Sequence record: PZ386952.1
DNA length: 61,166 bases
Strand: one strand, 5' to 3'
From: a phage
A program made the translations under genes and the position numbers. Of this stretch, positions 6,284 to 60,448 are shown piece after piece; position 1 is the stretch's first letter, and the number at the start of each line of letters is the position of its first letter. Below the pieces are notes generated by a model, which was not told the DNA's origin, did no database searches, and was given only the letters and a program-made list of their open reading frames with translations.

Positions 6284-6337
6284 CCATGGAAATGAGCCAT
6301 AGACAATATGTGTTGTGGCTCCTCCGACGTAATAGAA

Positions 6338-6367
6338 AACGGCGTCAAGAAGACGCCGTTTCTGTTC
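6338..6367 (+). terminator. candidate terminator / stem-loop
   Basis: AACGGCGTC-AAGAA-GACGCCGTT perfect 9-bp stem followed by TCTGTTCC (weak U-tract). Confidence 0.3.
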
Positions 6368-8182: not shown

Positions 8183-9106
8183 ATGGCTACAGGTTCACGT
8201 TATTCGTGTTGTTACGTCAAAGAAGATGTGAGCAACACAACTCCAGCAAGCGCGAAGTTTACCCCGTTTCGTGTAACGAGTTCCGGTCTGGATATTAACA
8301 TTGCAACGCTGGAGTCTGAAGAACTGCGTGATGACGCAGAAACCGCAGACTTCCGTCTTGGCGCTCGAAGCGTTGAAGGTACGGTAACGGGCGAAATGTC
8401 CTTCGGTACGTTTGACGACCTCATTGCGGCAGCGCTGCGCGGTGAATGGCAGGAGAACGTCCTTAAAGGTGGTATTGCTCGCCAGTCATTTACTTTTGTA
8501 GACTATAACGCAGATCTGCCATCAGGTAAATACACAATCTATCGCGGTTGTGAAGTTAACAGCATGACTTTCGCATTGTCAGCTGAAAACATGACCACAG
8601 TAGAGTTTGGTATTGTTGGTCGTTCCATGGAAATTGCTGAATCACTTCCTGCCGGTGCTTCCATTAAACCTCGTACAACTTCTTCACCGATGGACGGCTT
8701 CTCCGGTAGCTTGCTGGAAGGCGGTCAGGAAATTAGCGTTATTACGGAAATTGGTCTTACCGTTGAAAACGATATCTCCCCGCGCTTCGTTGTTGGCTCG
8801 AAGTTCTCCATTGAACCGTCTGCTGGTCGCCGTGCTGTAACTGGTACAGCTAACGTTTACTTCCTGGATAACAAACTGCGTAAGAAGTATCTGGATGAAG
8901 TGGAAACCTCAATCAAGTTTGATCTGATTGACCCAAGCAATCCGCAACAAAAATACACTGTGGAAATCCCTCGCGTGAAATTCACTGAAGCTCCACGCCC
9001 TATTGACGGTGAAGGGGATATCATGCTTAATATGGGCTACCGCGGATTGCTGGACCCAACAACCGCAAGTTCCATCAAAATTACCCGCGTTGTAGCGGGA
9101 GGATAA
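8183..9106 (+). CDS. major tail protein
   Basis: 307-aa ORF with RBS AGAGAGGA, directly upstream of chaperone/frameshift and tape measure genes. Confidence 0.6.
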   Translation: MATGSRYSCCYVKEDVSNTTPASAKFTPFRVTSSGLDINIATLESEELRDDAETADFRLGARSVEGTVTGEMSFGTFDDLIAAALRGEWQENVLKGGIARQSFTFVDYNADLPSGKYTIYRGCEVNSMTFALSAENMTTVEFGIVGRSMEIAESLPAGASIKPRTTSSPMDGFSGSLLEGGQEISVITEIGLTVENDISPRFVVGSKFSIEPSAGRRAVTGTANVYFLDNKLRKKYLDEVETSIKFDLIDPSNPQQKYTVEIPRVKFTEAPRPIDGEGDIMLNMGYRGLLDPTTASSIKITRVVAGG

Positions 9107-9115
9107 GGATAAGAA

Positions 9116-9523
9116 ATGACCGACACCAAAAAAGCCAAAGTTGCAGTAGCTAAAAGCTTTCGTGATTTTAAAACTGTGAGCCGGGCAAATGATCCGGCAA
9201 ACACTAAGCCTATGAATGTGGTTATTCCTGGTGTAGGCGACACTGGCGAAAAACTCTACATTCGTAGCCGCTACTGCACAGAGTACCGTGATGCTGAACT
9301 GAAAGCGCAACGTCAACTGTTGGCACTTATGCAGGGTAAAGACGGTGAAGTAACAGATGCTATGAAGGAAGACATCCTTACCCGTTCACTGTGTAACCTT
9401 GTAGCAGGTTGGACATTTGATGAGCCGCCGACTGTTGACAACGTGTTTGAGTTCTTAACGGAGAACCCAACTGTTCGAGAAGATCTTAACGTATTTGCCG
9501 CTAAAGATAGTAATTTTTTCTAA
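9116..9523 (+). CDS. tail assembly chaperone (lambda G-like)
   Basis: 135-aa ORF between major tail and tape measure genes; ends DSNFF* inside a slippery U-run. Confidence 0.65.
   Translation: MTDTKKAKVAVAKSFRDFKTVSRANDPANTKPMNVVIPGVGDTGEKLYIRSRYCTEYRDAELKAQRQLLALMQGKDGEVTDAMKEDILTRSLCNLVAGWTFDEPPTVDNVFEFLTENPTVREDLNVFAAKDSNFF
9514..9520 (+). promoter_or_regulatory. -1 ribosomal frameshift slippery heptamer T_TTT_TTC
   Basis: X_XXY_YYZ heptamer in the zero frame of the chaperone ORF, 1 nt before its stop codon. Confidence 0.6.
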
Positions 9524-9921
9524 AAGCGCGCAGACAGTTAATTGATAAGAAGATCCTCCAATGGGAACTAAATAGTAAAGTCCCCGGCGGGGGATCTTCT
9601 TTATTATCGCAACTGCAAAAGGTTGAAGAACAGTCTGGTAAGACGCCACCTAAGCTTAAAGAATATCGGGAAAAGGAAATACCGCTCTGCTTTGAATACC
9701 TGTCTACTTTATTTGATGATATTTACACTGGAGGAGATTTTAGTTATACAGAATTGCACAGCTATCAAGTGACAATGGGCTTACATCTTCAACCGTACGA
9801 ATGCGAAATACTGCGGCAGCTATGGCTTGAAAAGCGCGTGTCAGAAGCTGAGCAAAATGCTAAACTCATGGAAAGTCAAATGCAAAATCAAAATAAAGGT
9901 AGAAGAAAAAGGAGAAGATAA
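9514..9921 (+). CDS. tail assembly chaperone frameshift extension (G-T-like fusion, 9116..9520 joined to 9520..9921)
   Basis: -1 frame is open for 135 codons from the slippery site to a TAA overlapping the tape measure ATG (TAATG); no ATG start of its own, so absent from the ORF track. Confidence 0.6.
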   Translation, partial: FFLKARRQLIDKKILQWELNSKVPGGGSSLLSQLQKVEEQSGKTPPKLKEYREKEIPLCFEYLSTLFDDIYTGGDFSYTELHSYQVTMGLHLQPYECEILRQLWLEKRVSEAEQNAKLMESQMQNQNKGRRKRRR

Positions 9922-12900
9922 TGGCCGAAACCGCTTCGCTAGTAATCAGAGTTGACGCGAGAGGGATTAGTACCGCGGACTCTATGTTGCGGAACCTAGC
10001 GCGTACAGGTGACACAGCGGAGCGGTCTGCTCAACGTGTTACCTCCAGCTATAAAACATTGTCTAACACATCTAACGAACTTGCAACTGTCACAAGTCGT
10101 TTAGATGCTGCAATTTTAGGAATGGTTAGCGTTGACACTATTAGCCGTGTTATTTCGCTATCGGACTCCTGGACTATCCTCACCAACAAACTTGAACTAG
10201 CTCGTACTGGTAATGAAACCGTTGCGGATGCGCAGCAACGCGTGTTTGATATTGCCCAGCGGTCACGTACAAGCTTGGAAGCAACTGCAACTCTGTATTC
10301 CCGTCTCCAGCGTGCGATGAAGAATACTGGTATGACTGGTATGGAGCTTGGACGTATCACGGAAACAATCAACAAAGCAATGATCGTTTCTGGTGCAACG
10401 TCCCATGAAGCAAGTGCTGCTCTTATTCAGTTTTCGCAAGCAATGGCATCCGGTGTTCTGCGTGGAGATGAATTCCGCTCTGTTGCAGAACAAGCTCCGC
10501 GCTTAACTCAAATCATGTCCGATTCTTTAGGTGTTACCATTGGACAATTGCGCGAACTGGCTTACAGCGGCAAGTTAACCTCAGATGTGGTTATCAAATC
10601 GTTGTCTGGTGCTGCGGATACAATTGATAAAGAATTTAGCCGCACTATGCCAACGTTCAACCAGCAATGGACAGTTGCAACAAACAACCTGACTAAGTTT
10701 ATGGGCGAATCCCAAAAGACTCAAGGTGCTGTTGCGGCATTGGGACAGACGTTTGTTGCATTATCCGAAAACTTAGGAACGGTTGTAACGGTTGGTTCAG
10801 CTTTAGCCACAGTGATTACCGCCCGTATCATTACGGCAATGCTTGCTAAGACTAAAGCGTCTATAGCTGCTGCAAAAGCATCTCAGATGGAAGCTGCACA
10901 AACTGCGGCAACTACGGCGGTGATGCAAAGCTCTATTGGCGTTACCGCACAGAAAGCGGCTGCGGATCGTGCCGCTTCGCTTGCAGCGTTACAGGTTGCT
11001 CGCGGGTCATTAGCGGTTGCTAAGGGTACGGCAGCGGAAGCAGGTGCTCGTCTTGCGCTTATTAATGCTACCCGTGCACATTCTGCGGCAATTATGGCGG
11101 ACGTACAAGCGCGGCAGGCGCTCAATGCTGCTCTTAATGCAACTGTACCAGCCGCAAGCCGAGCAGCTACAGCAATGAGCGTGCTGCGCGGTGCTATGGG
11201 GTTAATTGGCGGTCCTGTTGGTGTAGCAATGCTGGCAGCGGGTGCAATTTACTCCTATAAAGCGTCGCTGGAAGCAGGTCGTGCGGAAAACAATCAGTTT
11301 GCGGATAGTGTTGATTCTGTACGCGAGAAACTGATGCAGATGACAGAAGCTCAGTTGGCAGCTAACGCAGTTAAAGCTCGCGCAATACTTCCGGAACTTG
11401 AAGAGCAAATGAAGCGCGAGCAAACCGCTCTTAAATCTGCAACGGAAACGCAGAAGTTCTATGAAGCACAATTGAAGCGTCGAGCTGCATCCGGTCGAGA
11501 TACTGCTAGTGCGGAAAAGAACTTACAAATTGCTACGGATAACGTCAAGCTAGCTGCTGAACGCGCGGAAGACGCACAACGTCGATATAACAATGTGCTT
11601 GAAATGACAAGCCCCGCTATAGAGAAAATAATCCCTCTAGCGCGTCAGCTTGCTGCGGATATGAAGGCTGTCCTTAACATTAAATCCGGTCCGTTAATTG
11701 ACGAAAAAGTATTGGATCGCTTTAAAGGTCAACTCGGAGACGTTAACCGTGAGATTGATGTTAACACGGTTAAAGGTGCTGGCAACGCGCGTCAAGCTGC
11801 AATCCTTAGAGGTCTGTATCAAACACTAGGTAAAGATGCAGACACCTACGGAAGTCTTATTCGCAAAGTAGCTATGGGTCAGGACGTTAGCTCAGAGGCA
11901 ACAAGCGAATCCGCTAAAGAGCTTGTTAAATATGCTCAAGATTTAGCCCAAGCTCTTGGCAAAAACTACGATCTTGAGGAAGCAGAGAAAAACCGAACCA
12001 AAGCTACAAAAGACGCTATTAAGGCGGATCAACAAAACGCTAAGGTTATTGACAATTTACGAAACAAGCTTAACGAAGTAACCACAGGAGTTAAGGAAAA
12101 CGCTAAAGCGAAAGCGCAAGCGGTGGCACTTAATAAGCTCAATGCGTCTGCAACGGCTGAGGAAAAAGCGGAAGTTGTTAGACTTGCTGCTGCAATCTAC
12201 GATGCAGAAGAAGCTCAAAAGAAACTGGACGAGCGTAAGAAGAATCGTAAGTTTGCTCAGGGTTTGTTAGATGAAGGTATGACAGACTATGAAAAAATCG
12301 CGTACGAGCAAAATACAAAGATTGCAGAGCTTAATGCAAAACAGCGAGCGGATGATTTAGCTTACTATCAGCTTTACGAAGATGCTAAAACACAAGTCCT
12401 GAAGAAAGCAAGTATGGAAAGGGAAAACCTGGATAAAGTTCTTATGAACCGAATGATATCCTTTTCTCAGGAATCATTGGGTGTTATATTGTCAGGTCTG
12501 GAAGAAGGTGTTAGTAAACAGAACTTTATTTATAAAGCAATGTTTGCAGCACAGAAAGCAATGCAAATTCCATCAATTCTTGCTAACACGGAAACAGCGG
12601 CATCTGCGGCACTTGCATGGGGTACACAGCAAGGCGGGGCTACAATGGGCGCAGCTATGGCTGGTATAGTAAAAGCTATGGGTTATGCGTCGGCTGCTAC
12701 TGTGGGTGGCTTAGCAATCGCTGGTATGGCACATGACGGTATTGATAATGTTCCGCGCGAAGGTACATGGTTATTGGATAAAGGTGAACGTGTACTTAAT
12801 GCTCCGTCTAATGACAAGTTAAACCGCTTCCTGGATAGCCAAGCTTCACAACAAGGTGGCGTGAATATGTCCGGTGGTGTTAGCATTGTTCAGTATATCA

Positions 12901-13037
12901 CGGTGCAAGGAAATGGCGATGCTGCACTCACGCAAGCCATGCAGCAAGCAGCTCGTGATGGTGCGGAGCAGGGATATAATAAAGTTCTTACTGACTTTGC
13001 ATCCCGAGGAACAATTCGTAGAACTGCAATGGGGTAA
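9921..13037 (+). CDS. tape measure protein
   Basis: 1038-aa Ala/Gln/Lys-rich helical ORF directly after chaperone frameshift region. Confidence 0.85.
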   Translation: MAETASLVIRVDARGISTADSMLRNLARTGDTAERSAQRVTSSYKTLSNTSNELATVTSRLDAAILGMVSVDTISRVISLSDSWTILTNKLELARTGNETVADAQQRVFDIAQRSRTSLEATATLYSRLQRAMKNTGMTGMELGRITETINKAMIVSGATSHEASAALIQFSQAMASGVLRGDEFRSVAEQAPRLTQIMSDSLGVTIGQLRELAYSGKLTSDVVIKSLSGAADTIDKEFSRTMPTFNQQWTVATNNLTKFMGESQKTQGAVAALGQTFVALSENLGTVVTVGSALATVITARIITAMLAKTKASIAAAKASQMEAAQTAATTAVMQSSIGVTAQKAAADRAASLAALQVARGSLAVAKGTAAEAGARLALINATRAHSAAIMADVQARQALNAALNATVPAASRAATAMSVLRGAMGLIGGPVGVAMLAAGAIYSYKASLEAGRAENNQFADSVDSVREKLMQMTEAQLAANAVKARAILPELEEQMKREQTALKSATETQKFYEAQLKRRAASGRDTASAEKNLQIATDNVKLAAERAEDAQRRYNNVLEMTSPAIEKIIPLARQLAADMKAVLNIKSGPLIDEKVLDRFKGQLGDVNREIDVNTVKGAGNARQAAILRGLYQTLGKDADTYGSLIRKVAMGQDVSSEATSESAKELVKYAQDLAQALGKNYDLEEAEKNRTKATKDAIKADQQNAKVIDNLRNKLNEVTTGVKENAKAKAQAVALNKLNASATAEEKAEVVRLAAAIYDAEEAQKKLDERKKNRKFAQGLLDEGMTDYEKIAYEQNTKIAELNAKQRADDLAYYQLYEDAKTQVLKKASMERENLDKVLMNRMISFSQESLGVILSGLEEGVSKQNFIYKAMFAAQKAMQIPSILANTETAASAALAWGTQQGGATMGAAMAGIVKAMGYASAATVGGLAIAGMAHDGIDNVPREGTWLLDKGERVLNAPSNDKLNRFLDSQASQQGGVNMSGGVSIVQYITVQGNGDAALTQAMQQAARDGAEQGYNKVLTDFASRGTIRRTAMG

Positions 13038-14618: not shown

Positions 14619-17269
14619 TGCCACCAGCAATAATTGGAGCAGCAATAGCTTTAGGCGCTTCCGCTGCCGCTGCGGCGGGGTGGATTGCTACGGGTGTAGC
14701 TTTAGCTATTGGTATGGCTGCAACCGCGGCAGGTGCTCTTCTAACTAAGACACCTAATACAAACTTTAATGCTTATAAAGGTCAACAAGAACGTAAGCAA
14801 GTTTTACGAGCAGCCGCAGCCCCGCGTACCGTAGTCTATGGGACAACCGTTGCTTCCGGCGTTATGGTGTTTGCGGAAGAGCAACCGGGCGATCAAGAAG
14901 AAGACGAATTGCTGCACATGGCTTTAGTTATAGCAGGACACCCTCTTGATGGTATTGGGGATATATGGCTTGGGGATGACCTTGTTCAAACGTTTGAGGA
15001 TTATGTTACTTGGGAGTTTCATAATGACCGTCAAACTGTAGATCCTTTCATGAAAAAGAATTGTCCTTCCTGGAAGGAGGATATGATTGGTAAAGGGATT
15101 GCATGGCTTCGCATTAGTTTTAAATTTAATGCGGAGAAATTCCCGTCAGGCTTACCAAACGTCAAAATGCTGAAACGTGGTCGCCGTATATACGATCCAC
15201 GTTCCGGACAAACTGTATTCAGCGATAACGCTGCATTAGTTATACTCGATTATTTCCGTACTTACCTAAAACGTAAAGACGAGAATATTAACTGGGATCA
15301 GTTTAAAGAAGCGGCTAACATCTGCGATGAATACGTTCCTAACGCTGATGGTTCTACTGAACAGCGTTATAGAATTAATGGTGAGTTTGAAGTAGATGAA
15401 GCCCCTTCTAAGATCCTGGATGCTATGCTACAAGCTTGCGGTGGCGAACTGACATATGTAGCAGGTAAACATGGCTTGCTTGTTGGTGCATATTACGGCC
15501 CAGCTACAATGACGCTTGATGAAAGCTGCATTGCTGGAGATATTAAAATTGTTCCGGAGACTTCTTACAAGGAGCGCACCAACACCATTACAGGGACATT
15601 TATCGACCCGAAGCAGAACTATGTTGAAGCTGACTTCCCTCCAGTTGTGGTTAAGGAATGGGTGGAAAAGGATGGCGGCGAAATAACTCAGGACATGGAT
15701 TTCCGTTTTGTTGCTAGCGAGTATCAAGCTCAACGTCTAGCTAATATTGTTTTACGTCGTAAACGTGTCGGACGTACAATTGAAATCCCTTGTAACATGA
15801 GGGGTTATAAGTTCCGCCCCGGAATGTATGTAAAAGTTACTATTACGCAAATCGGTATGAAGAATGTCGAAATGCGTGTCACCAAATGGTCGTTTAACCC
15901 TAAAGGCGGAGTTAACCTAACATTACGCCAGGACTTCCTGGAAATGTGGGACGATGTTATTGGTAAACCTATGGAGCGTCCGGACCTTGTAGACCTACCT
16001 ACTGGTGGCGTTGCTCAACCTCAAAACCTTCAGTATCAAATACTACAGATCAGCGATGTTGTACAGGGGGTTTTATCCTGGACCAATATGGGACAGGTTG
16101 CGTATAACCGCGTAGCCGTGCGACAGGGGGGTACAACCATTTGGACCGCACAAGTCCCAGGCCAAAGTGTTCGCGTTACTGGGTTGCTGCGGGGCGCGTA
16201 TACAGCACACGTTCAAGCTGTATCCTATAGCGGCGCGGTGTCACCGGAAGCTTATCTGGAATTTAATATTCAAGCGCCACCTCCGCCAACGTCTGTTGAA
16301 GTGCAACAGGGTTACTTTGCAATAACCTTAATTCCTAAGTCTTCAGATATTGCAAACGTTAGTACACAATATGACTTCTGGACTTCTGGTGAAACAAGAC
16401 TTTCTTCTGCTTCTACAGATGTCGTAGAGCGCGATGCAACTCGTAAAGGTATGGGTACAACCTGGACTTCGGAAGGTTTGAAGAATGACCACACTTATTA
16501 CTGGTATGTACGGACAATTAACGCGTTCGGATCGTCTGCATTCGTAGAAGTTGCTGCAACATGCTTCACAACTGCTACAGAGCTAATGCCACAGATTGAT
16601 GCAGAACTCAAAAAGACTGAAACGTTTAAAGAGCTTACTGCTGAAATTACTGGTGTTAAAGATGGTGTTACTCAGCTTAGTCAAACTGTAGTAGAAACCG
16701 AACAACGTTTAAGTCAAAGTATTAGCAGCGTTCAGGAAAGCTTAAATGATGTTAGCGCAACTGTACAGGAGACAAGTAAAGCAGTTGTTGATCTGGAAGG
16801 CAATGTTAACGCTCAATGGGGTGCTAAAGTACAGGTTGATAATAAGGGGCAAAAATACGTTGCTGGTATCCAGTTAGGTATGGAGGGCTCCGGTGGTGCT
16901 GTTCAATCTTACTTCATGGTGAGTGCAAACAACTTTGCTGTTTATAACCCGACAAACAGTGTAGCTGAATTAGCCTTTGTGGTTAAGAACGGTCAGGTGT
17001 TCATGAAAGCTGCATTTATCGAAAACGGATCTATTGATAACGCTAAGATTGGTAACTATATTCAGTCCAACAACTATGTAAGCGGTTCTTCTGGCTGGAG
17101 GATTACTAAGGACGGGGCCTCGGAGTTTAATAATGTTGTCGTCAGAGGTGAGATACATGCAGCGGTTGGTAAATTTGGATTCGACGGGAATGGAGGTATA
17201 ACCATCAATAGTAACGGAATTACCGTCCCATTATCGGGCGGAGGTAAAGTTGTAGTTGGTAGATGGTAA
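14618..17269 (+). CDS. tail tip / host specificity protein (gpI-C-terminus-like N-terminus fused to gpJ-like)
   Basis: ATG at 14618 with GGAGGG RBS (track start 14606 is in frame); Gly/Ala-rich hydrophobic N-terminus then large beta-rich body; 883 aa. Confidence 0.6.
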   Translation: MPPAIIGAAIALGASAAAAAGWIATGVALAIGMAATAAGALLTKTPNTNFNAYKGQQERKQVLRAAAAPRTVVYGTTVASGVMVFAEEQPGDQEEDELLHMALVIAGHPLDGIGDIWLGDDLVQTFEDYVTWEFHNDRQTVDPFMKKNCPSWKEDMIGKGIAWLRISFKFNAEKFPSGLPNVKMLKRGRRIYDPRSGQTVFSDNAALVILDYFRTYLKRKDENINWDQFKEAANICDEYVPNADGSTEQRYRINGEFEVDEAPSKILDAMLQACGGELTYVAGKHGLLVGAYYGPATMTLDESCIAGDIKIVPETSYKERTNTITGTFIDPKQNYVEADFPPVVVKEWVEKDGGEITQDMDFRFVASEYQAQRLANIVLRRKRVGRTIEIPCNMRGYKFRPGMYVKVTITQIGMKNVEMRVTKWSFNPKGGVNLTLRQDFLEMWDDVIGKPMERPDLVDLPTGGVAQPQNLQYQILQISDVVQGVLSWTNMGQVAYNRVAVRQGGTTIWTAQVPGQSVRVTGLLRGAYTAHVQAVSYSGAVSPEAYLEFNIQAPPPPTSVEVQQGYFAITLIPKSSDIANVSTQYDFWTSGETRLSSASTDVVERDATRKGMGTTWTSEGLKNDHTYYWYVRTINAFGSSAFVEVAATCFTTATELMPQIDAELKKTETFKELTAEITGVKDGVTQLSQTVVETEQRLSQSISSVQESLNDVSATVQETSKAVVDLEGNVNAQWGAKVQVDNKGQKYVAGIQLGMEGSGGAVQSYFMVSANNFAVYNPTNSVAELAFVVKNGQVFMKAAFIENGSIDNAKIGNYIQSNNYVSGSSGWRITKDGASEFNNVVVRGEIHAAVGKFGFDGNGGITINSNGITVPLSGGGKVVVGRW

Positions 17270-39437: not shown

Positions 39438-40319
39438 TTACTGCTGCCACGGCGGAACTGCGGATTGTGCCGGATGCGGTTCAGCTTGCTGCTGTGGTTG
39501 CGCTTGCTGCGCTGGCGCTGCTGCCTGGCCAGGCTGCGCTACCTGCTGCGCCCACGGTTGCTGAGCTGCTTCCGGTGCTACTGGCTGTTGTACCGGAGCT
39601 TGCTGAACTGGCTGCTGCGGCGCTGCGTTTTGAGCAGGATTATCCCACGGCTGCGGTGCTGCGTTCTGCCACGGTTGAGCTGCTGCGCTCTGCTGCGGTG
39701 CTGGTTGCTGCACAGGCTGCTGAACTGGCTGCTGTTGCTGTACCGGAGCTTGCTGCTGTACAGGTGCTTGCTGTTGCTGAGCAAACGGGTTAGCTGCTGG
39801 CTGCTGTGGCGCTGCGCCCGGGAAAGTCGGTTGCTGTGCTGGCGCACCTGCACCAAACGGGTTAGCTACTGCTGGAGCGCCCATTGCCGGAGCACCTGCT
39901 TCTTTTTCTGCATATTTAACCGGATCGTTAATGTTAGCGTAACCGTTAGGCTCGTTGCTGTCTTCATAACCTTCCTGAGAACGAACTTTCAGACGCAGGT
40001 TCAGCGGAATGTTATGCAGCTGAGCAGGGGTATCCCAGCGAATTACACCAACCGCATGGGACAGAGCGCCCAGTTGCTCGTAAGCGATACGTACAGTATC
40101 TTCGTTGTCATTGATGACGTTATAACGAGCAAAGATTTTACGCCCTTTAGCAAAACCGTCAATGATGCTAAACGTTACCTGGATTGCCATACCGCCATTT
40201 TTGGTCGGTTTAAATTCAGATGCTTCAATTACTGCTTTATACCAACCTTTCGGCAATGCGCCGTAAGAAGGTGCTTGATAGCTGCTCGCGTCAAAGTGGA
40301 AATTAGTTGGCATAGTCAT
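39438..40319 (-). CDS. ssDNA-binding-like protein with long Gln/Pro/Ala-rich C-terminal tail
   Basis: N-terminal ~150-aa globular domain followed by ~140 aa of QQPxQQ/AAPQ low complexity; adjacent to Sak4-like ATPase. Confidence 0.45.
   Translation of the reverse strand: MTMPTNFHFDASSYQAPSYGALPKGWYKAVIEASEFKPTKNGGMAIQVTFSIIDGFAKGRKIFARYNVINDNEDTVRIAYEQLGALSHAVGVIRWDTPAQLHNIPLNLRLKVRSQEGYEDSNEPNGYANINDPVKYAEKEAGAPAMGAPAVANPFGAGAPAQQPTFPGAAPQQPAANPFAQQQQAPVQQQAPVQQQQPVQQPVQQPAPQQSAAAQPWQNAAPQPWDNPAQNAAPQQPVQQAPVQQPVAPEAAQQPWAQQVAQPGQAAAPAQQAQPQQQAEPHPAQSAVPPWQQ
39440..39850 (-). repeat. low-complexity CAG/CTG-rich coding repeat
   Basis: Repeated GCTGCTG / CTGGCTG units on + strand; generates long spurious antisense ORFs. 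Confidence 0.8.
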
Positions 40320-52168: not shown

Positions 52169-52783
52169 TTATGCGTCCAGTCCGTTGTATTTGCGCCAGG
52201 CGTAGAACTGAATGGCCACCGTTGTTCCGTTGTAAGAAGGCATTGCAGCTTTCATTTCTTTCAGCCCCGGCGTGCGGCCCAGTTCCTTCAGAAGTTTGTC
52301 GCCCATTGCCCACACTTCGGCGGTTTTTCCTTTGAGAGGCTTGCGAGCGCCATTTTTGAAATCACAGCGAGCAGCTTTTGCATTCTGTTTTGACGAGGCA
52401 GCTTTTGGCTCTTCAATTTTGATTTCAGAAACCTGCGTGGCAGCTTTTGCATGTTTCATATCTTTCTCTTCCTCCTGCTCCAGAGCTTCGAGGCAGCTTT
52501 TGACGATTTCCGGATTTACCATCGGGCGCAGTACCGAGACGCTGGCAGCTGGCGCGGCGGTCGGTGCCGGGACTTTCTGCTCAGGCTGTTGCGCTTTTTC
52601 ATGATCGCGCAGCACCTGAAGAACTTCCTTCTCGATAATGTAAAAACCGATCTCGTCCTGATGGATAAGCTGTTCGTGTGCGTCGCGTGCAACCTGGCCC
52701 CAGCGGGTCTTCAGGGCGCGGCGTGCATTCGTTTTCATGGTGTAGCGCATTTTGTCCTGTTCGCGGTGAGTTACTTTAGACAT
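52169..52783 (-). CDS. hypothetical protein
   Basis: ATG at 52783 with AAAGGAG RBS (track start 52843); Ala/Pro/Lys-rich middle. Confidence 0.4.
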   Translation of the reverse strand: MSKVTHREQDKMRYTMKTNARRALKTRWGQVARDAHEQLIHQDEIGFYIIEKEVLQVLRDHEKAQQPEQKVPAPTAAPAASVSVLRPMVNPEIVKSCLEALEQEEEKDMKHAKAATQVSEIKIEEPKAASSKQNAKAARCDFKNGARKPLKGKTAEVWAMGDKLLKELGRTPGLKEMKAAMPSYNGTTVAIQFYAWRKYNGLDA

Positions 52784-59991: not shown

Positions 59992-60448
59992 CTTCTTCGG
60001 TTTTATAAAAACTAAACCGCGTCTGTTTATCGAGTATTTGATGATCGGCGCGGTTGTGTTTTTATGCGGGGTGGCCGCATACTTGTGGTCACAAAACGAG
60101 CTGAGCAAAACTAATTTAAAACACGCTGAGCAAAGACTAACCGTTGTAGAACAGGACAATGCAAAGCTGGGCGAAGCTGTTGTATTTCTTGCATCCCAAC
60201 GGGAGAAGGATACTGAATCTTATAGAAAATTGGCTTCAGCAATTAAAAGTGAGCAACATAACCACAGGTTGCTTCAGGACAAATTAAAAGCACTGGAGAA
60301 AAGCAATGCCGACGTCAAAGCTTATCTTAATGAGCGTGTTCCTGATGATTTGCGCAGGCTGCTCGACGCAGACTCAACCTCCCCCAGCTCCACAGATAGT
60401 GAAGGTAAGACTGCCCGCGCATCTACTGGTGGAATGTCGGGAAGTTGA
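59972..60448 (+). CDS. i-spanin (Rz-like)
   Basis: N-terminal TM helix followed by coiled-coil periplasmic domain. Confidence 0.55.
   Translation: MKTILNNFFGFIKTKPRLFIEYLMIGAVVFLCGVAAYLWSQNELSKTNLKHAEQRLTVVEQDNAKLGEAVVFLASQREKDTESYRKLASAIKSEQHNHRLLQDKLKALEKSNADVKAYLNERVPDDLRRLLDADSTSPSSTDSEGKTARASTGGMSGS

What the first reader, a model, noticed from the sequence alone, without database searches (positions are those of the whole stretch)
9506..9921. Programmed -1 frameshift producing an extended tail assembly chaperone
The chaperone ORF (9116-9523) ends DSNFF*. The heptamer T_TTT_TTC (9514-9520) is a canonical X_XXY_YYZ slippery site in its zero frame, and the -1 frame is then open for 135 codons up to a TAA that overlaps the tape-measure ATG (TAATG). 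That frame has no usable start of its own. A 10-bp stem (9549-9558 pairing with 9589-9598, one G-U pair) enclosing a CCCCGGCGGGG hairpin lies about 30 nt downstream and could act as a stimulatory structure. The mechanism is conserved in lambda-like phages, but the site and structure here come from the sequence itself.
Basis: partly seen in the sequence, partly recalled or inferred. Interest (0 to 1): 0.45.

Follow-up and report, generated by a model that had tools for sequence, protein, structure and literature searches.

The report
Known tail-chaperone −1 frameshift site
This is the standard programmed −1 ribosomal frameshift by which a Seurat-like E. coli phage makes a short and a long tail-assembly chaperone from one gene. 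It is well supported by comparison with relatives, but it is already annotated in the near-identical phage Seurat.

Summary
The window is a Seuratvirus phage, 95–97.6% identical to Seurat, CAjan and KS_W4 over the queried 1.5-kb stretch 8900-10400. The core observation is exact. G (9116-9523) ends AAT TTT TTC TAA. The −1 frame opens at 9514, just after its own TAG and TAA stops, and runs to TAA 9919-9921, which overlaps the tape-measure ATG. The two frames overlap only across the in-frame heptamer T_TTT_TTC (9514-9520).

The extension is coding. It shows a third-position substitution excess, it matches Pfam Phage_TAC_18, and PHROG 569 covers G and T contiguously. It has no ATG, GTG or TTG before 9754. 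The same −1 layout occurs in all 14 distinct relatives fetched and in all 60 IMG/VR loci, with an in-frame T-run slip motif in each.

GenBank KM236243 (Seurat) already carries this joined CDS with "ribosomal slippage", over an identical cassette. It is therefore already known, though as a prediction only.

The real core is 9549-9559 paired with 9589-9599. The CCCC/GGGG mini-hairpin competes with that stem and is not enclosed by it. The hairpin is under RNA-level selection in several genera, but it starts 18–35 nt after the heptamer, outside the usual stimulator range. Its role is unresolved.

The parts
8183..9106 (+). Tail tube (major tail) protein gene, the upstream neighbour
   Evidence: Pfam Phage_tube_2, E = 3.2e-43. 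PHROG 290.
9106..9109 (+). Shine-Dalgarno sequence (AGGA) for G, 6 nt before the ATG
   Evidence: Read from the sequence. Same position as the RBS annotated in Seurat.
9116..9523 (+). G: the short tail assembly (tape measure) chaperone, 135 aa, ending DSNFF*
   Evidence: PHROG 569 (E = 2.8e-26) and PHROG 313 'Tail assembly chaperone'. Weak Pfam Phage_TAC_4 match, below threshold.
9508..9513 (+). Two stops in the −1 frame (TAG, TAA) that close that frame immediately before the heptamer
9514..9520 (+). Slippery heptamer T_TTT_TTC in the G frame. It is the only stretch where both frames are open.
   Evidence: In-frame TTTTTT[C/A] in all 14 distinct relatives fetched and in 32 of 60 IMG/VR loci.
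9521..9523 (+). Zero-frame stop TAA directly after the heptamer (a possible 'shifty stop' context)
   Evidence: The stop is also immediate in STP-SP5, yong3, 9g and K9PH25C2, but not in more distant clades.
9520..9921 (+). T: the −1-frame extension, 133 codons (LKARRQ…RRKRRR) plus TAA. The fusion GT = join(9116..9520, 9520..9921), 268 aa.
   Evidence: Codon-position substitutions 14/3/34 against STP-SP5 and 2/2/14 against L021. PHROG 569 profile positions 130-256.
9622..9831 (+). Phage_TAC_18 domain within the extension (residues 35-104). It lies mostly upstream of the first possible start codon in this frame.
   Evidence: Pfam PF23812, 38.8 bits against a cut-off of 27. First ATG/GTG/TTG at 9754.
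9543..9606 (+). RNA hairpin. Core 9549-9559 x 9589-9599, lower stem 9543-9548 x 9601-9606, inner pairs 9562-9565 x 9583-9586. Role unresolved.
   Evidence: Synonymous-recoding z = −4.3 and −4.6. No Rfam family.
9910..9914 (+). Shine-Dalgarno sequence (AGGAG) of the tape measure gene, inside the end of T
   Evidence: Read from the sequence. Matches the Seurat RBS annotation.
9921..13037 (+). Tape measure protein gene. Its ATG overlaps the T stop (TAATG).
   Evidence: Pfam TMP_3, E = 8.5e-60.

Best explanation
Most ribosomes translating the tail-assembly-chaperone gene G stop at UAA 9521-9523 and release a 135-aa protein. A minority slip back one base while tRNA-Phe occupies UUU and UUC of U_UUU_UUC (9514-9520). 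This could be tandem P/A-site slippage, or P-site slippage while the adjacent stop codon waits in the A site. Those ribosomes then read CUA AAA GCG… in the −1 frame to UAA 9919-9921 and make a 268-aa GT fusion.

By analogy with lambda gpG/gpGT, the shared G part would bind the tape measure protein and the T part (Phage_TAC_18 domain) would recruit the tail tube protein. The fixed slip frequency would set the G:GT ratio needed for tail assembly.

Shown here: the sequence anatomy, the coding status of the −1 frame, and its family-wide conservation. Inferred: that slippage actually occurs, its efficiency, and the protein functions.
For: - Anatomy. The two frames overlap only at an in-frame X_XXY_YYZ heptamer, and there is no ATG/GTG/TTG in the −1 frame for 80 codons.
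- Synteny is tube – G – T – tape measure.
- The −1 frame is coding. Substitutions fall mainly on the third codon position (14/3/34 and 2/2/14).
- There is a Pfam Phage_TAC_18 hit above the curated cut-off.
- PHROG 569 aligns G to profile positions 11-126 and T to 130-256, so the family profile is built from fusions.
- Conservation. Every relative examined has the −1 arrangement. In-frame TTTTTT[C/A] is found in 14 of 14 distinct relatives fetched, from E. coli, Salmonella, Hafnia, Klebsiella, Enterobacter, Pantoea, Providencia, Pseudomonas/Stutzerimonas and Alteromonas phages.
- Among the 60 IMG/VR loci, 32 have TTTTTT[C/A], 16 have A_AAT_TTT, and 12 have a shorter in-frame T-run motif.
- The T-protein alignment is gapless from the slip site. 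The second Phe of the FF is invariant in both alignments; the first is invariant among the T_TTT_TTY phages (A1) and becomes Lys, Gln or Gly in the marine clade. Residues are conserved immediately after it. This argues against downstream initiation.
- H_HH.U_UU.Y heptamers are among the most efficient −1 motifs in E. coli. U_UU.U_UU.C shifts at more than 0.1% without any stimulator and is used by IS elements (PMC4066793).
- Curators of Seurat and SA80RD annotated the same join as ribosomal slippage. The cassette from the heptamer to +110 is identical to Seurat's.
Against: - I found no experimental evidence (protein, reporter or ribosome profiling) for this phage group. The Seurat, Vid5 and EC151 papers do not mention a frameshift.
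- There is no stimulator at canonical spacing: no upstream SD-like element by eye, and the hairpin starts 22-28 nt downstream.
- Several depositors annotate two separate ORFs instead.
- Ribosomal slippage and insertion of one U by RNA polymerase would give the same protein.
Confidence: 0.9

Rival explanations
1. The hairpin 9543-9606 is the 3' stimulator of the frameshift, and acts from an unusually long distance.
For: - It is a stable structure, more stable than shuffles and than synonymous recodings.
- A hairpin sits at the same place, with different sequences, in Seuratvirus, yong3, Vid5, K4PH164/EC151/L026, 9g and K9PH25C2/L027/L028.
- It is the strongest, or tied for strongest, excess-structure segment of the whole G-T gene in 5 of 7 lineages. 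In Vid5 and EC151 it is within 0.5 z of the strongest.
- In a distant marine clade of the same family, a covariation-supported helix starts 6 nt after a weaker slip motif.
- MFE hairpins start 5-8 nt after the heptamer in high-GC clades. Hairpins next to this slip site are therefore a family trait.
- Long-range effects have precedent, for example T7 gene 10 (PMC5009743).
Against: - The spacer is 22-28 nt here and 18-35 nt in related genera. Known 3' stimulators have spacers of 5-9 nt, rarely 12-15 nt.
- With the ribosome on the heptamer, the stem lies well outside the mRNA entry channel.
- There is no pseudoknot signal between the spacer and the loop, or between the loop and downstream sequence (z ≥ −0.8).
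- The outer pairs that would bring the helix closer (9533-9539 x 9611-9616) are weak and are lost in close relatives.
Confidence: 0.3
2. The hairpin has a role other than stimulation. Most ribosomes terminate at 9523, so it behaves as a 3'-UTR-like hairpin of the abundant tube/G message. It could protect that message from 3' exonucleases or RNase E, or act as a leaky terminator or attenuator. Either way it would lower expression of T, the tape measure and distal tail genes relative to tube and G.
For: - In the lineages with the strongest hairpin signal, the G stop lies 0-6 codons after the heptamer, so only shifted ribosomes ever unwind it.
- In Seuratvirus the core stem is followed by a U-rich tract (UUUAUUAU), and the scan flags a terminator-like site at 9580-9595.
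- In PSTCR4 and K4PH164, where the G stop is further downstream, the hairpin lies 10-12 nt after the stop.
Against: - The U-tract is absent in 9g, K9PH25C2 and K4PH164, so a terminator is at best genus-specific.
- The correlation between stop position and hairpin position is weak (Spearman 0.30, p = 0.08).
- There are no transcript-end data.
Confidence: 0.35
3. GT arises from transcriptional slippage. RNA polymerase inserts one extra U in the T6 run, and the edited mRNA is then translated normally.
For: A homopolymer run is present, T6 here and T7 in 9g and K4PH164. The product would be identical to the ribosomal one.
Against: - T6 is shorter than the runs on which bacterial RNA polymerase slips appreciably (general knowledge, not tested here).
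- The run is kept in the exact X_XXY_YYZ register in every lineage.
- A distant clade keeps only T4-T5 in an in-frame N_NNU_UUU motif together with a canonically spaced, covarying hairpin. That is a ribosomal signature.
Confidence: 0.04
4. G and T are separate proteins. T starts on its own, at an internal or non-canonical start codon or by reinitiation after G terminates, as annotated in the BASEL, 9g and Vid5 records.
For: Gene callers place starts inside the −1 frame, for example ATG 9775 in GottfriedDienst and comparable calls in relatives.
Against: - The first ATG/GTG/TTG is at 9754, with no SD sequence before it. A product from 9775 would be 48 aa and would lack most of the TAC_18 domain (9622-9831).
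- Amino-acid conservation and the third-position substitution bias begin at the heptamer.
- The annotated internal starts differ between genera.
Confidence: 0.03

Closest known systems
Escherichia phage Seurat CPT_Seurat13/14 'tape measure chaperone' (GenBank KM236243, joined CDS 9835..10640, note 'ribosomal slippage (10236)'). The same join is annotated in vB_EcoS_SA80RD.
   Same: It is the same genus and the same genes. The slip position is the same (10236 corresponds to window 9517). The nucleotide sequence is identical from the heptamer to +110, and the extension protein is 100% identical over the 127 aligned residues.
   Different: Nothing of substance. The window is another isolate, about 96.7% identical over 8900-10400. 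The Seurat annotation is a prediction and is not discussed in the paper.
Lambda gpG/gpGT and the conserved tail-assembly-chaperone frameshift of long-tailed dsDNA phages (Levin 1993; Xu, Hendrix and Duda 2004, as summarised in PMC5009743 and PMC10885494)
   Same: Two overlapping ORFs lie between the major tail and tape measure genes. A −1 shift occurs near the end of the first ORF at an X_XXY_YYZ heptamer. The second ORF has no start of its own. The products are a short protein and a fusion.
   Different: - The heptamer is U_UUU_UUC, not G_GGA_AAG.
- The zero-frame stop abuts the heptamer.
- Sequence similarity to lambda G/T was not tested. The family here is Phage_TAC_18 / PHROG 569.
- The ratio and the protein functions are untested here.
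U_UUU_UUC and U_UUY −1 frameshift motifs in E. coli IS elements and reporters (Sharma et al. 2014, PMC4066793)
   Same: The heptamer is the same, in the same host translation system. That work reports it as shift-prone without a stimulator and as under-represented in E. coli genes.
   Different: In IS elements the motif is normally paired with a hairpin or pseudoknot a few nt downstream, and sometimes with an upstream SD. Here the only strong structure starts 22-28 nt away.
Long-range or non-canonical 3' frameshift stimulators (T7 gene 10 distal element; IS elements with a second stem-loop 44-104 nt downstream; stimulators with 12-15 nt spacers), per PMC5009743
   Same: A structure beyond the canonical 5-9 nt spacer is associated with a bacterial-type −1 site.
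   Different: No interaction partner close to the slip site was found, and no functional data exist. The resemblance is only positional.

Membership tests
Tail assembly chaperone G/GT programmed −1 frameshift (lambda-like, Xu et al. 2004 class) | Two overlapping ORFs located between the major tail (tube) gene and the tape measure gene | tested here: met
   Tube 8183-9106 (Phage_tube_2), G 9116-9523, T 9520-9921, tape measure 9921-13037 (TMP_3).
Tail assembly chaperone G/GT programmed −1 frameshift (lambda-like, Xu et al. 2004 class) | The downstream ORF is in the −1 frame and lacks its own start codon and RBS | tested here: met
   The −1 frame is open 9514-9918. The first ATG/GTG/TTG is at 9754, with no SD sequence. 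The +1 frame closes after 7 codons.
Tail assembly chaperone G/GT programmed −1 frameshift (lambda-like, Xu et al. 2004 class) | A slippery X_XXY_YYZ sequence in the zero-frame register within the overlap | tested here: met
   T_TTT_TTC 9514-9520 is the entire overlap. It is among the efficient E. coli motifs.
Tail assembly chaperone G/GT programmed −1 frameshift (lambda-like, Xu et al. 2004 class) | The frameshift arrangement is conserved among divergent relatives | tested here: met
   All 14 distinct relatives fetched and all 60 IMG/VR loci have the arrangement. The second Phe of the FF at the slip site is invariant in both alignments, and the first is invariant among the T_TTT_TTY phages.
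Tail assembly chaperone G/GT programmed −1 frameshift (lambda-like, Xu et al. 2004 class) | Both halves belong to tail-assembly-chaperone protein families | tested here: met
   T matches Pfam Phage_TAC_18 at 38.8 bits (cut-off 27). G matches PHROG 569 and 313. G against Pfam Phage_TAC_4 scores only 14.3 bits, below the cut-off. There is no solved homologue.
Tail assembly chaperone G/GT programmed −1 frameshift (lambda-like, Xu et al. 2004 class) | Two proteins (G and the GT fusion) are made in a fixed ratio, both are needed for tail assembly, and both are absent from virions | not testable with these tools
   This needs Western blot or MS, reporter assays and genetics. No such data were found for Queuovirinae.
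Canonical 3' RNA stimulator of −1 frameshifting (hairpin or pseudoknot) | Stable, evolutionarily maintained structure downstream of the slip site | tested here: met
   z = −4.05. Synonymous-recoding z is −2.9 to −4.6 in most of the Queuovirinae-related genera tested, and weaker in K4PH164, L025 and EC151. Two compensatory pairs occur in the 9g group, with only 4 sequences and therefore weak power.
Canonical 3' RNA stimulator of −1 frameshifting (hairpin or pseudoknot) | The 5' edge lies 5-9 nt (rarely 12-15 nt) after the heptamer | tested here: not met
   The spacer is 22 nt to the extended stem and 28 nt to the core. It is 18-35 nt in related genera. The range is taken from PMC5009743.
Canonical 3' RNA stimulator of −1 frameshifting (hairpin or pseudoknot) | Disrupting the structure lowers frameshifting, and compensatory changes restore it | not testable with these tools
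   A reporter assay is required.
Rho-independent (intrinsic) terminator | Compact G+C-rich hairpin immediately followed by a U-tract, conserved among relatives | tested here: inconclusive
   The pattern scan flags 9580-9595 plus CTTCTTTATT, and a U-rich tail follows the core stem in Seuratvirus. However, the favoured fold is a 64-nt irregular hairpin, and the U-tract is missing in 9g, K9PH25C2 and K4PH164.
Any Rfam RNA family | Match at or above the family gathering score | tested here: not met
   Only sub-threshold generic hairpin (miRNA-precursor-like) matches were found over 9300-10000.

The most novel reading that the evidence does not exclude
The hairpin next to this slip site is an old, family-wide RNA element. 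In some clades it sits at canonical distance: 6 nt in a marine clade, supported by covariation, and 5-8 nt in high-GC clades by MFE only. In Seuratvirus, Nonagvirus, Vid5-like and K4PH164-like phages it is maintained by selection at 18-35 nt, beyond the reach of a ribosome sitting on the heptamer.

If so, there are two possibilities. It could tune the frameshift by an unconventional route, for example through pausing of already-shifted ribosomes or in concert with the abutting stop codon. Alternatively it has been repurposed, for example as a protective or attenuating 3' hairpin that sets tube/G versus T/tape-measure stoichiometry at the mRNA level.
Probability: 0.25. Interest if true: 0.45.

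Novelty: already known. Interest (0 to 1): 0.15.

Why it matters
For annotation, G and T in this genome should be one joined CDS (join 9116..9520, 9520..9921) plus the short G. Several relatives annotate them as two ORFs or as a 'hypothetical protein'.

Biologically it adds nothing new to the textbook G/GT mechanism. Two comparative results may be of some use:
- The T-run slip motif is conserved across the whole Phage_TAC_18 family, even in genomes of about 60% G+C.
- The associated hairpin is under selection, but its spacing differs sharply between clades. This offers a natural series for testing how spacer length, slip-motif strength and an adjacent stop codon trade off in bacterial −1 frameshifting.

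Tried and rejected
- +1 or −2 shift. The +1 frame closes 7 codons after the G stop. Rejected.
- Independent start for T. There is no ATG/GTG/TTG before 9754, and conservation starts at the heptamer. Rejected.
- Homopolymer sequencing error. T6 and the −1 relation recur in every independently sequenced relative examined. 9g-type phages have T7 and keep the same frame relation. Rejected.
- A single consensus structure for all Queuovirinae-like genera. RNAalifold on the codon-aligned stack gave no structure, because the stems use different registers. I therefore used per-lineage synonymous-recoding tests instead.
- Pseudoknot between the spacer and the hairpin loop, or between the loop and downstream sequence. 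No signal.
- Outer helix bringing the structure to 12-14 nt (9533-9539 x 9611-9616). It is weak and is broken in IMG/VR relatives. Not relied on.
- Known RNA family. Rfam gave nothing above threshold.
- Solved structure for G or GT. None by sequence.
- Upstream SD-like stimulator. None seen by eye in the 25 nt before the heptamer in several lineages (contexts).
- My first idea that the marine clade differs from Seuratvirus by a 3-codon indel between the slip site and the hairpin was wrong. The protein alignment is collinear. The 3' arm region is shared, but its 5' partner differs.
- One literature query failed on syntax.
Full report
**What the window is.** A megablast of 8900-10400 finds 35 phage records, 31 of them at 95–99% identity. 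Nearly all are Escherichia phages of the genus Seuratvirus (Queuovirinae): KS_W4 at 97.6%, and Seurat, CAjan, slur01, Greed and several BASEL phages. The local gene order is:
- tail tube protein, 8183-9106 (Pfam Phage_tube_2, E = 3e-43);
- a 135-aa ORF, 9116-9523;
- a 400-nt stretch with no conventional ORF;
- the tape measure gene, 9921-13037 (Pfam TMP_3, E = 8.5e-60).

**Check of the observation.**
- The ORF 9116-9523 ends …AAT TTT TTC TAA (DSNFF*).
- In its frame, T_TTT_TTC at 9514-9520 is a canonical X_XXY_YYZ heptamer.
- The −1 frame carries TAG 9508 and TAA 9511. It is then open for 135 codons up to TAA 9919-9921, which overlaps the tape-measure ATG (TAATG).
- The two frames are therefore simultaneously open only across the seven bases of the heptamer. 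Chance would give this in 0.4% of 7-mers.
- The first ATG/GTG/TTG in the −1 frame is TTG 9754, and there is no SD sequence in front of it or of GTG 9769 or ATG 9775.
- The +1 frame closes after 7 codons.

- 9549-9558 x 9589-9598 contains two mismatches.
- The real helix is 9549-9559 x 9589-9599: 11 bp, one G-U, pair probability above 0.99. It is extended by 9543-9548 x 9601-9606.
- The 'enclosed' CCCCGGCGGGG hairpin uses G9589-9592, which belong to the long stem. It is a competing fold with probability of about 0.

**Is the extension a real coding sequence?**
- Against Salmonella phage STP-SP5, substitutions between the heptamer and +219 fall 14/3/34 on codon positions 1/2/3 of the −1 frame. 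Against an IMG/VR relative they fall 2/2/14.
- The 133-aa extension matches Pfam Phage_TAC_18 (38.8 bits, cut-off 27) over residues 35-104, which is 9622-9831. Most of this lies upstream of any possible start codon.
- PHROG 569 aligns G to profile positions 11-126 and the extension to 130-256. The family profile itself is a G-T fusion.

**Comparative test of the frameshift.**
- tblastn with the extension finds 87 phage records, reaching down to about 25% identity.
- I fetched 14 distinct lineages: STP-SP5, Hafnia yong3, Pantoea Vid5, Klebsiella K4PH164 and K9PH25C2, Enterobacter EC151, 9g, HdK1, Providencia PSTCR4, Pseudomonas Baskent_P4_1, Ab18 and ZQG1, Salmonella PMBT28, and Alteromonas R7M.
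- In every one, the −1 frame is open from inside G to the tape-measure start. The G/−1 overlap contains an in-frame TTTTTTC, or TTTTTTA in K4PH164 and EC151.
- The T-protein alignment is gapless from the slip site. The FF encoded by the heptamer is invariant among these T_TTT_TTY phages. In the marine clade only the second Phe is kept. The next residues are conserved (x-[A/E/S]-R-x-[K/Q]-L-I).
- A profile search of IMG/VR returned 60 further loci, and all have the −1 arrangement. Of these, 32 have in-frame TTTTTT[C/A], 16 have A_AAT_TTT, and 12 have C_AAT_TTT, G_GTT_TTT or A_CTT_TTT.
- A T-run kept in one register, even in genomes of about 60% G+C, is strong evidence that the run itself is functional.
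- Sharma et al. 2014 list H_HH.U_UU.Y heptamers among the most efficient −1 motifs in E. coli. They report U_UU.U_UU.C as shifting above 0.1% without stimulators, as under-represented in genes, and as used by IS elements (PMC4066793).

**Prior knowledge.**
That position corresponds to window 9517.
- vB_EcoS_SA80RD does the same.
- The nucleotide sequence from the heptamer to +110 is identical in the window and Seurat.
- Other depositors call two ORFs or 'hypothetical protein'.
- The Seurat genome paper lists only a 'tape measure chaperone'. The Vid5 and EC151 papers do not mention it.
- The general mechanism (lambda gpG/gpGT, 30:1 ratio, G binds the tape measure, T binds the tube protein, neither is in virions) is textbook (PMC5009743; PMC10885494).
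- The finding is therefore correct but already known as a prediction. I found no experimental confirmation for this phage group.

**The hairpin.**
- 9514-9620 folds to −33.7 kcal/mol, with z = −4.05 and 0 of 200 shuffles as stable.
- The 80-nt window containing it ranks 80th of 12,218 on this strand.
- Hairpins of 17-28 bp (−20 to −30 kcal/mol), mostly with an apex about 59-61 nt from the heptamer start, occur in yong3, K4PH164/EC151/L026, 9g and K9PH25C2/L027/L028. In Vid5 the apex is about 69.
- These hairpins have different sequences and pairing registers, so RNAalifold finds no single consensus.
- Recoding each sequence with random synonymous codons shows the native RNA to be far more stable than the protein sequence requires. 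z is −2.9 to −4.6 in most lineages; it is −0.95 and −1.2 in L025 and K4PH164, and about −2.3 in EC151.
- Along the whole G-T gene, the excess peaks just after the slip site in each of the seven lineages tested. That segment is the strongest, or tied for strongest, in five of them. In Vid5 and EC151 it is within 0.5 z of the strongest.
- Between 9g and K9PH25C2-type phages, two stem pairs change on both sides (only 4 sequences, so weak).
- No Rfam family matches.

**The problem with a stimulator role is distance.** The stem begins 22 nt (extended) or 28 nt (core) after the heptamer here, and 18-35 nt in the related genera. Described 3' stimulators start 5-9 nt, rarely 12-15 nt, from the shift site (PMC5009743). 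I found no pseudoknot partner in the spacer or downstream.

**Hairpins in other clades of the family.**
- A distant marine IMG/VR clade has a weaker slip motif (N_AAU_UUU) and a helix that starts 6 nt after it. Columns 14-21 pair with 84-91, and 24-29 with 76-81.
- In that helix 93.8% of cells are paired, against 48% or less when the partner is slid. Five pairs show double changes, and 0 of 500 shuffles reach the observed score.
- The protein alignment shows no indel between the slip site and the conserved P-G-S motif. The same 3' arm region (about nt 76-93) therefore pairs with nt 14-29 in that clade and with nt 30-46 in Seuratvirus.
- High-GC clades also show MFE hairpins starting 5-8 nt after the heptamer (MFE only).
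- In the genera with the far-spaced hairpin, the G stop lies 0-6 codons after the heptamer. Only shifted ribosomes ever unwind the hairpin.

I therefore regard two roles as about equally likely and unresolved: a non-canonical modulator of the shift, or a 3'-UTR-like element of the tube/G message (protection or attenuation). In Seuratvirus alone the stem is followed by a U-rich tract, and the scan flags it as terminator-like.

**Rivals to the main mechanism.**
- Transcriptional slippage on T6 would give the same protein. It does not explain the strict codon register, or the clade with only T4-5 plus a canonical hairpin.
- Independent initiation of T is contradicted by the lack of starts and by conservation that begins at the heptamer.
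- A homopolymer sequencing error is excluded by recurrence in every independently sequenced relative examined.

**Verdict.** The mechanism is the ordinary G/GT −1 frameshift, and it is already annotated in Seurat. Interest is low. The only open point is what the selected, far-spaced hairpin does.

Noticed in passing
L051-L075 (IMG/VR marine-type contigs), first 105 nt from the slip motif; alignment A2: A distant clade of the same T family uses a weaker slip motif (A/C_AAT_TTT or G_GTT_TTT), with the G stop 3 codons later. It has a covariation-supported two-tier helix starting 6 nt after the motif: 93.8% of cells paired, 5 pairs with compensatory changes, 0 of 500 shuffles as good.
   Followed up: yes
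L006 1192-1201 and L008 1192-1201 (Klebsiella K4PH164, Enterobacter EC151); also L022, L023 and L025: These phages carry two overlapping in-frame heptamers, T_TTT_TTA and T_TTA_AAG. Slipping on either would give the same protein sequence. U_UU.A_AA.G is listed among the most efficient E. coli motifs (PMC4066793).
   Followed up: partly
L013, L032, L044, L047 (idx 15-61); L029, L033, L045 (idx 14-40); L017, L038 (idx 10-51); positions counted from the heptamer: High-GC (Pseudomonas-type) members of the family have MFE hairpins beginning 5-8 nt after T_TTT_TTC, and their G ORF continues 14-31 codons past the slip site. These are MFE predictions only. Covariation was not tested.
   Followed up: partly
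window 14651-14740, 39441-39625, 52541-52730, 60001-60095, 6286-6365, 10896-10975 (+ strand): These are the most stable 80-nt folds in the window (−34 to −38.6 kcal/mol), stronger than the hairpin studied here. I did not examine what they are. One sits at the 6283/6286 gene junction, and one lies just downstream of the TTG 14606 start of the 887-aa ORF.
   Followed up: no
window 9084-9099: A small G+C-rich hairpin (CCCGCGTTGTAGCGGG) lies at the very end of the tail tube gene, just before the G ribosome-binding site. The scan flags it as terminator-like on the − strand only.
   Followed up: no
window about 9116-9260 and the equivalent region in relatives (offsets −390 to −310 from the heptamer): A second, weaker excess-structure signal (synonymous-recoding z about −3.0 to −3.5) appears near the 5' part of G in the window, Vid5 and K9PH25C2. 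It is absent in 9g and EC151.
   Followed up: no
L003 1376-1522 (GottfriedDienst), L004 1282-1596, L009 1249-1587 and other relatives: Many deposited relatives annotate the T region as a separate short ORF with a genus-specific internal start, or leave it as 'hypothetical protein', rather than as a joined frameshift CDS. RefSeq-type labels call G a 'tail length tape measure protein'.
   Followed up: partly
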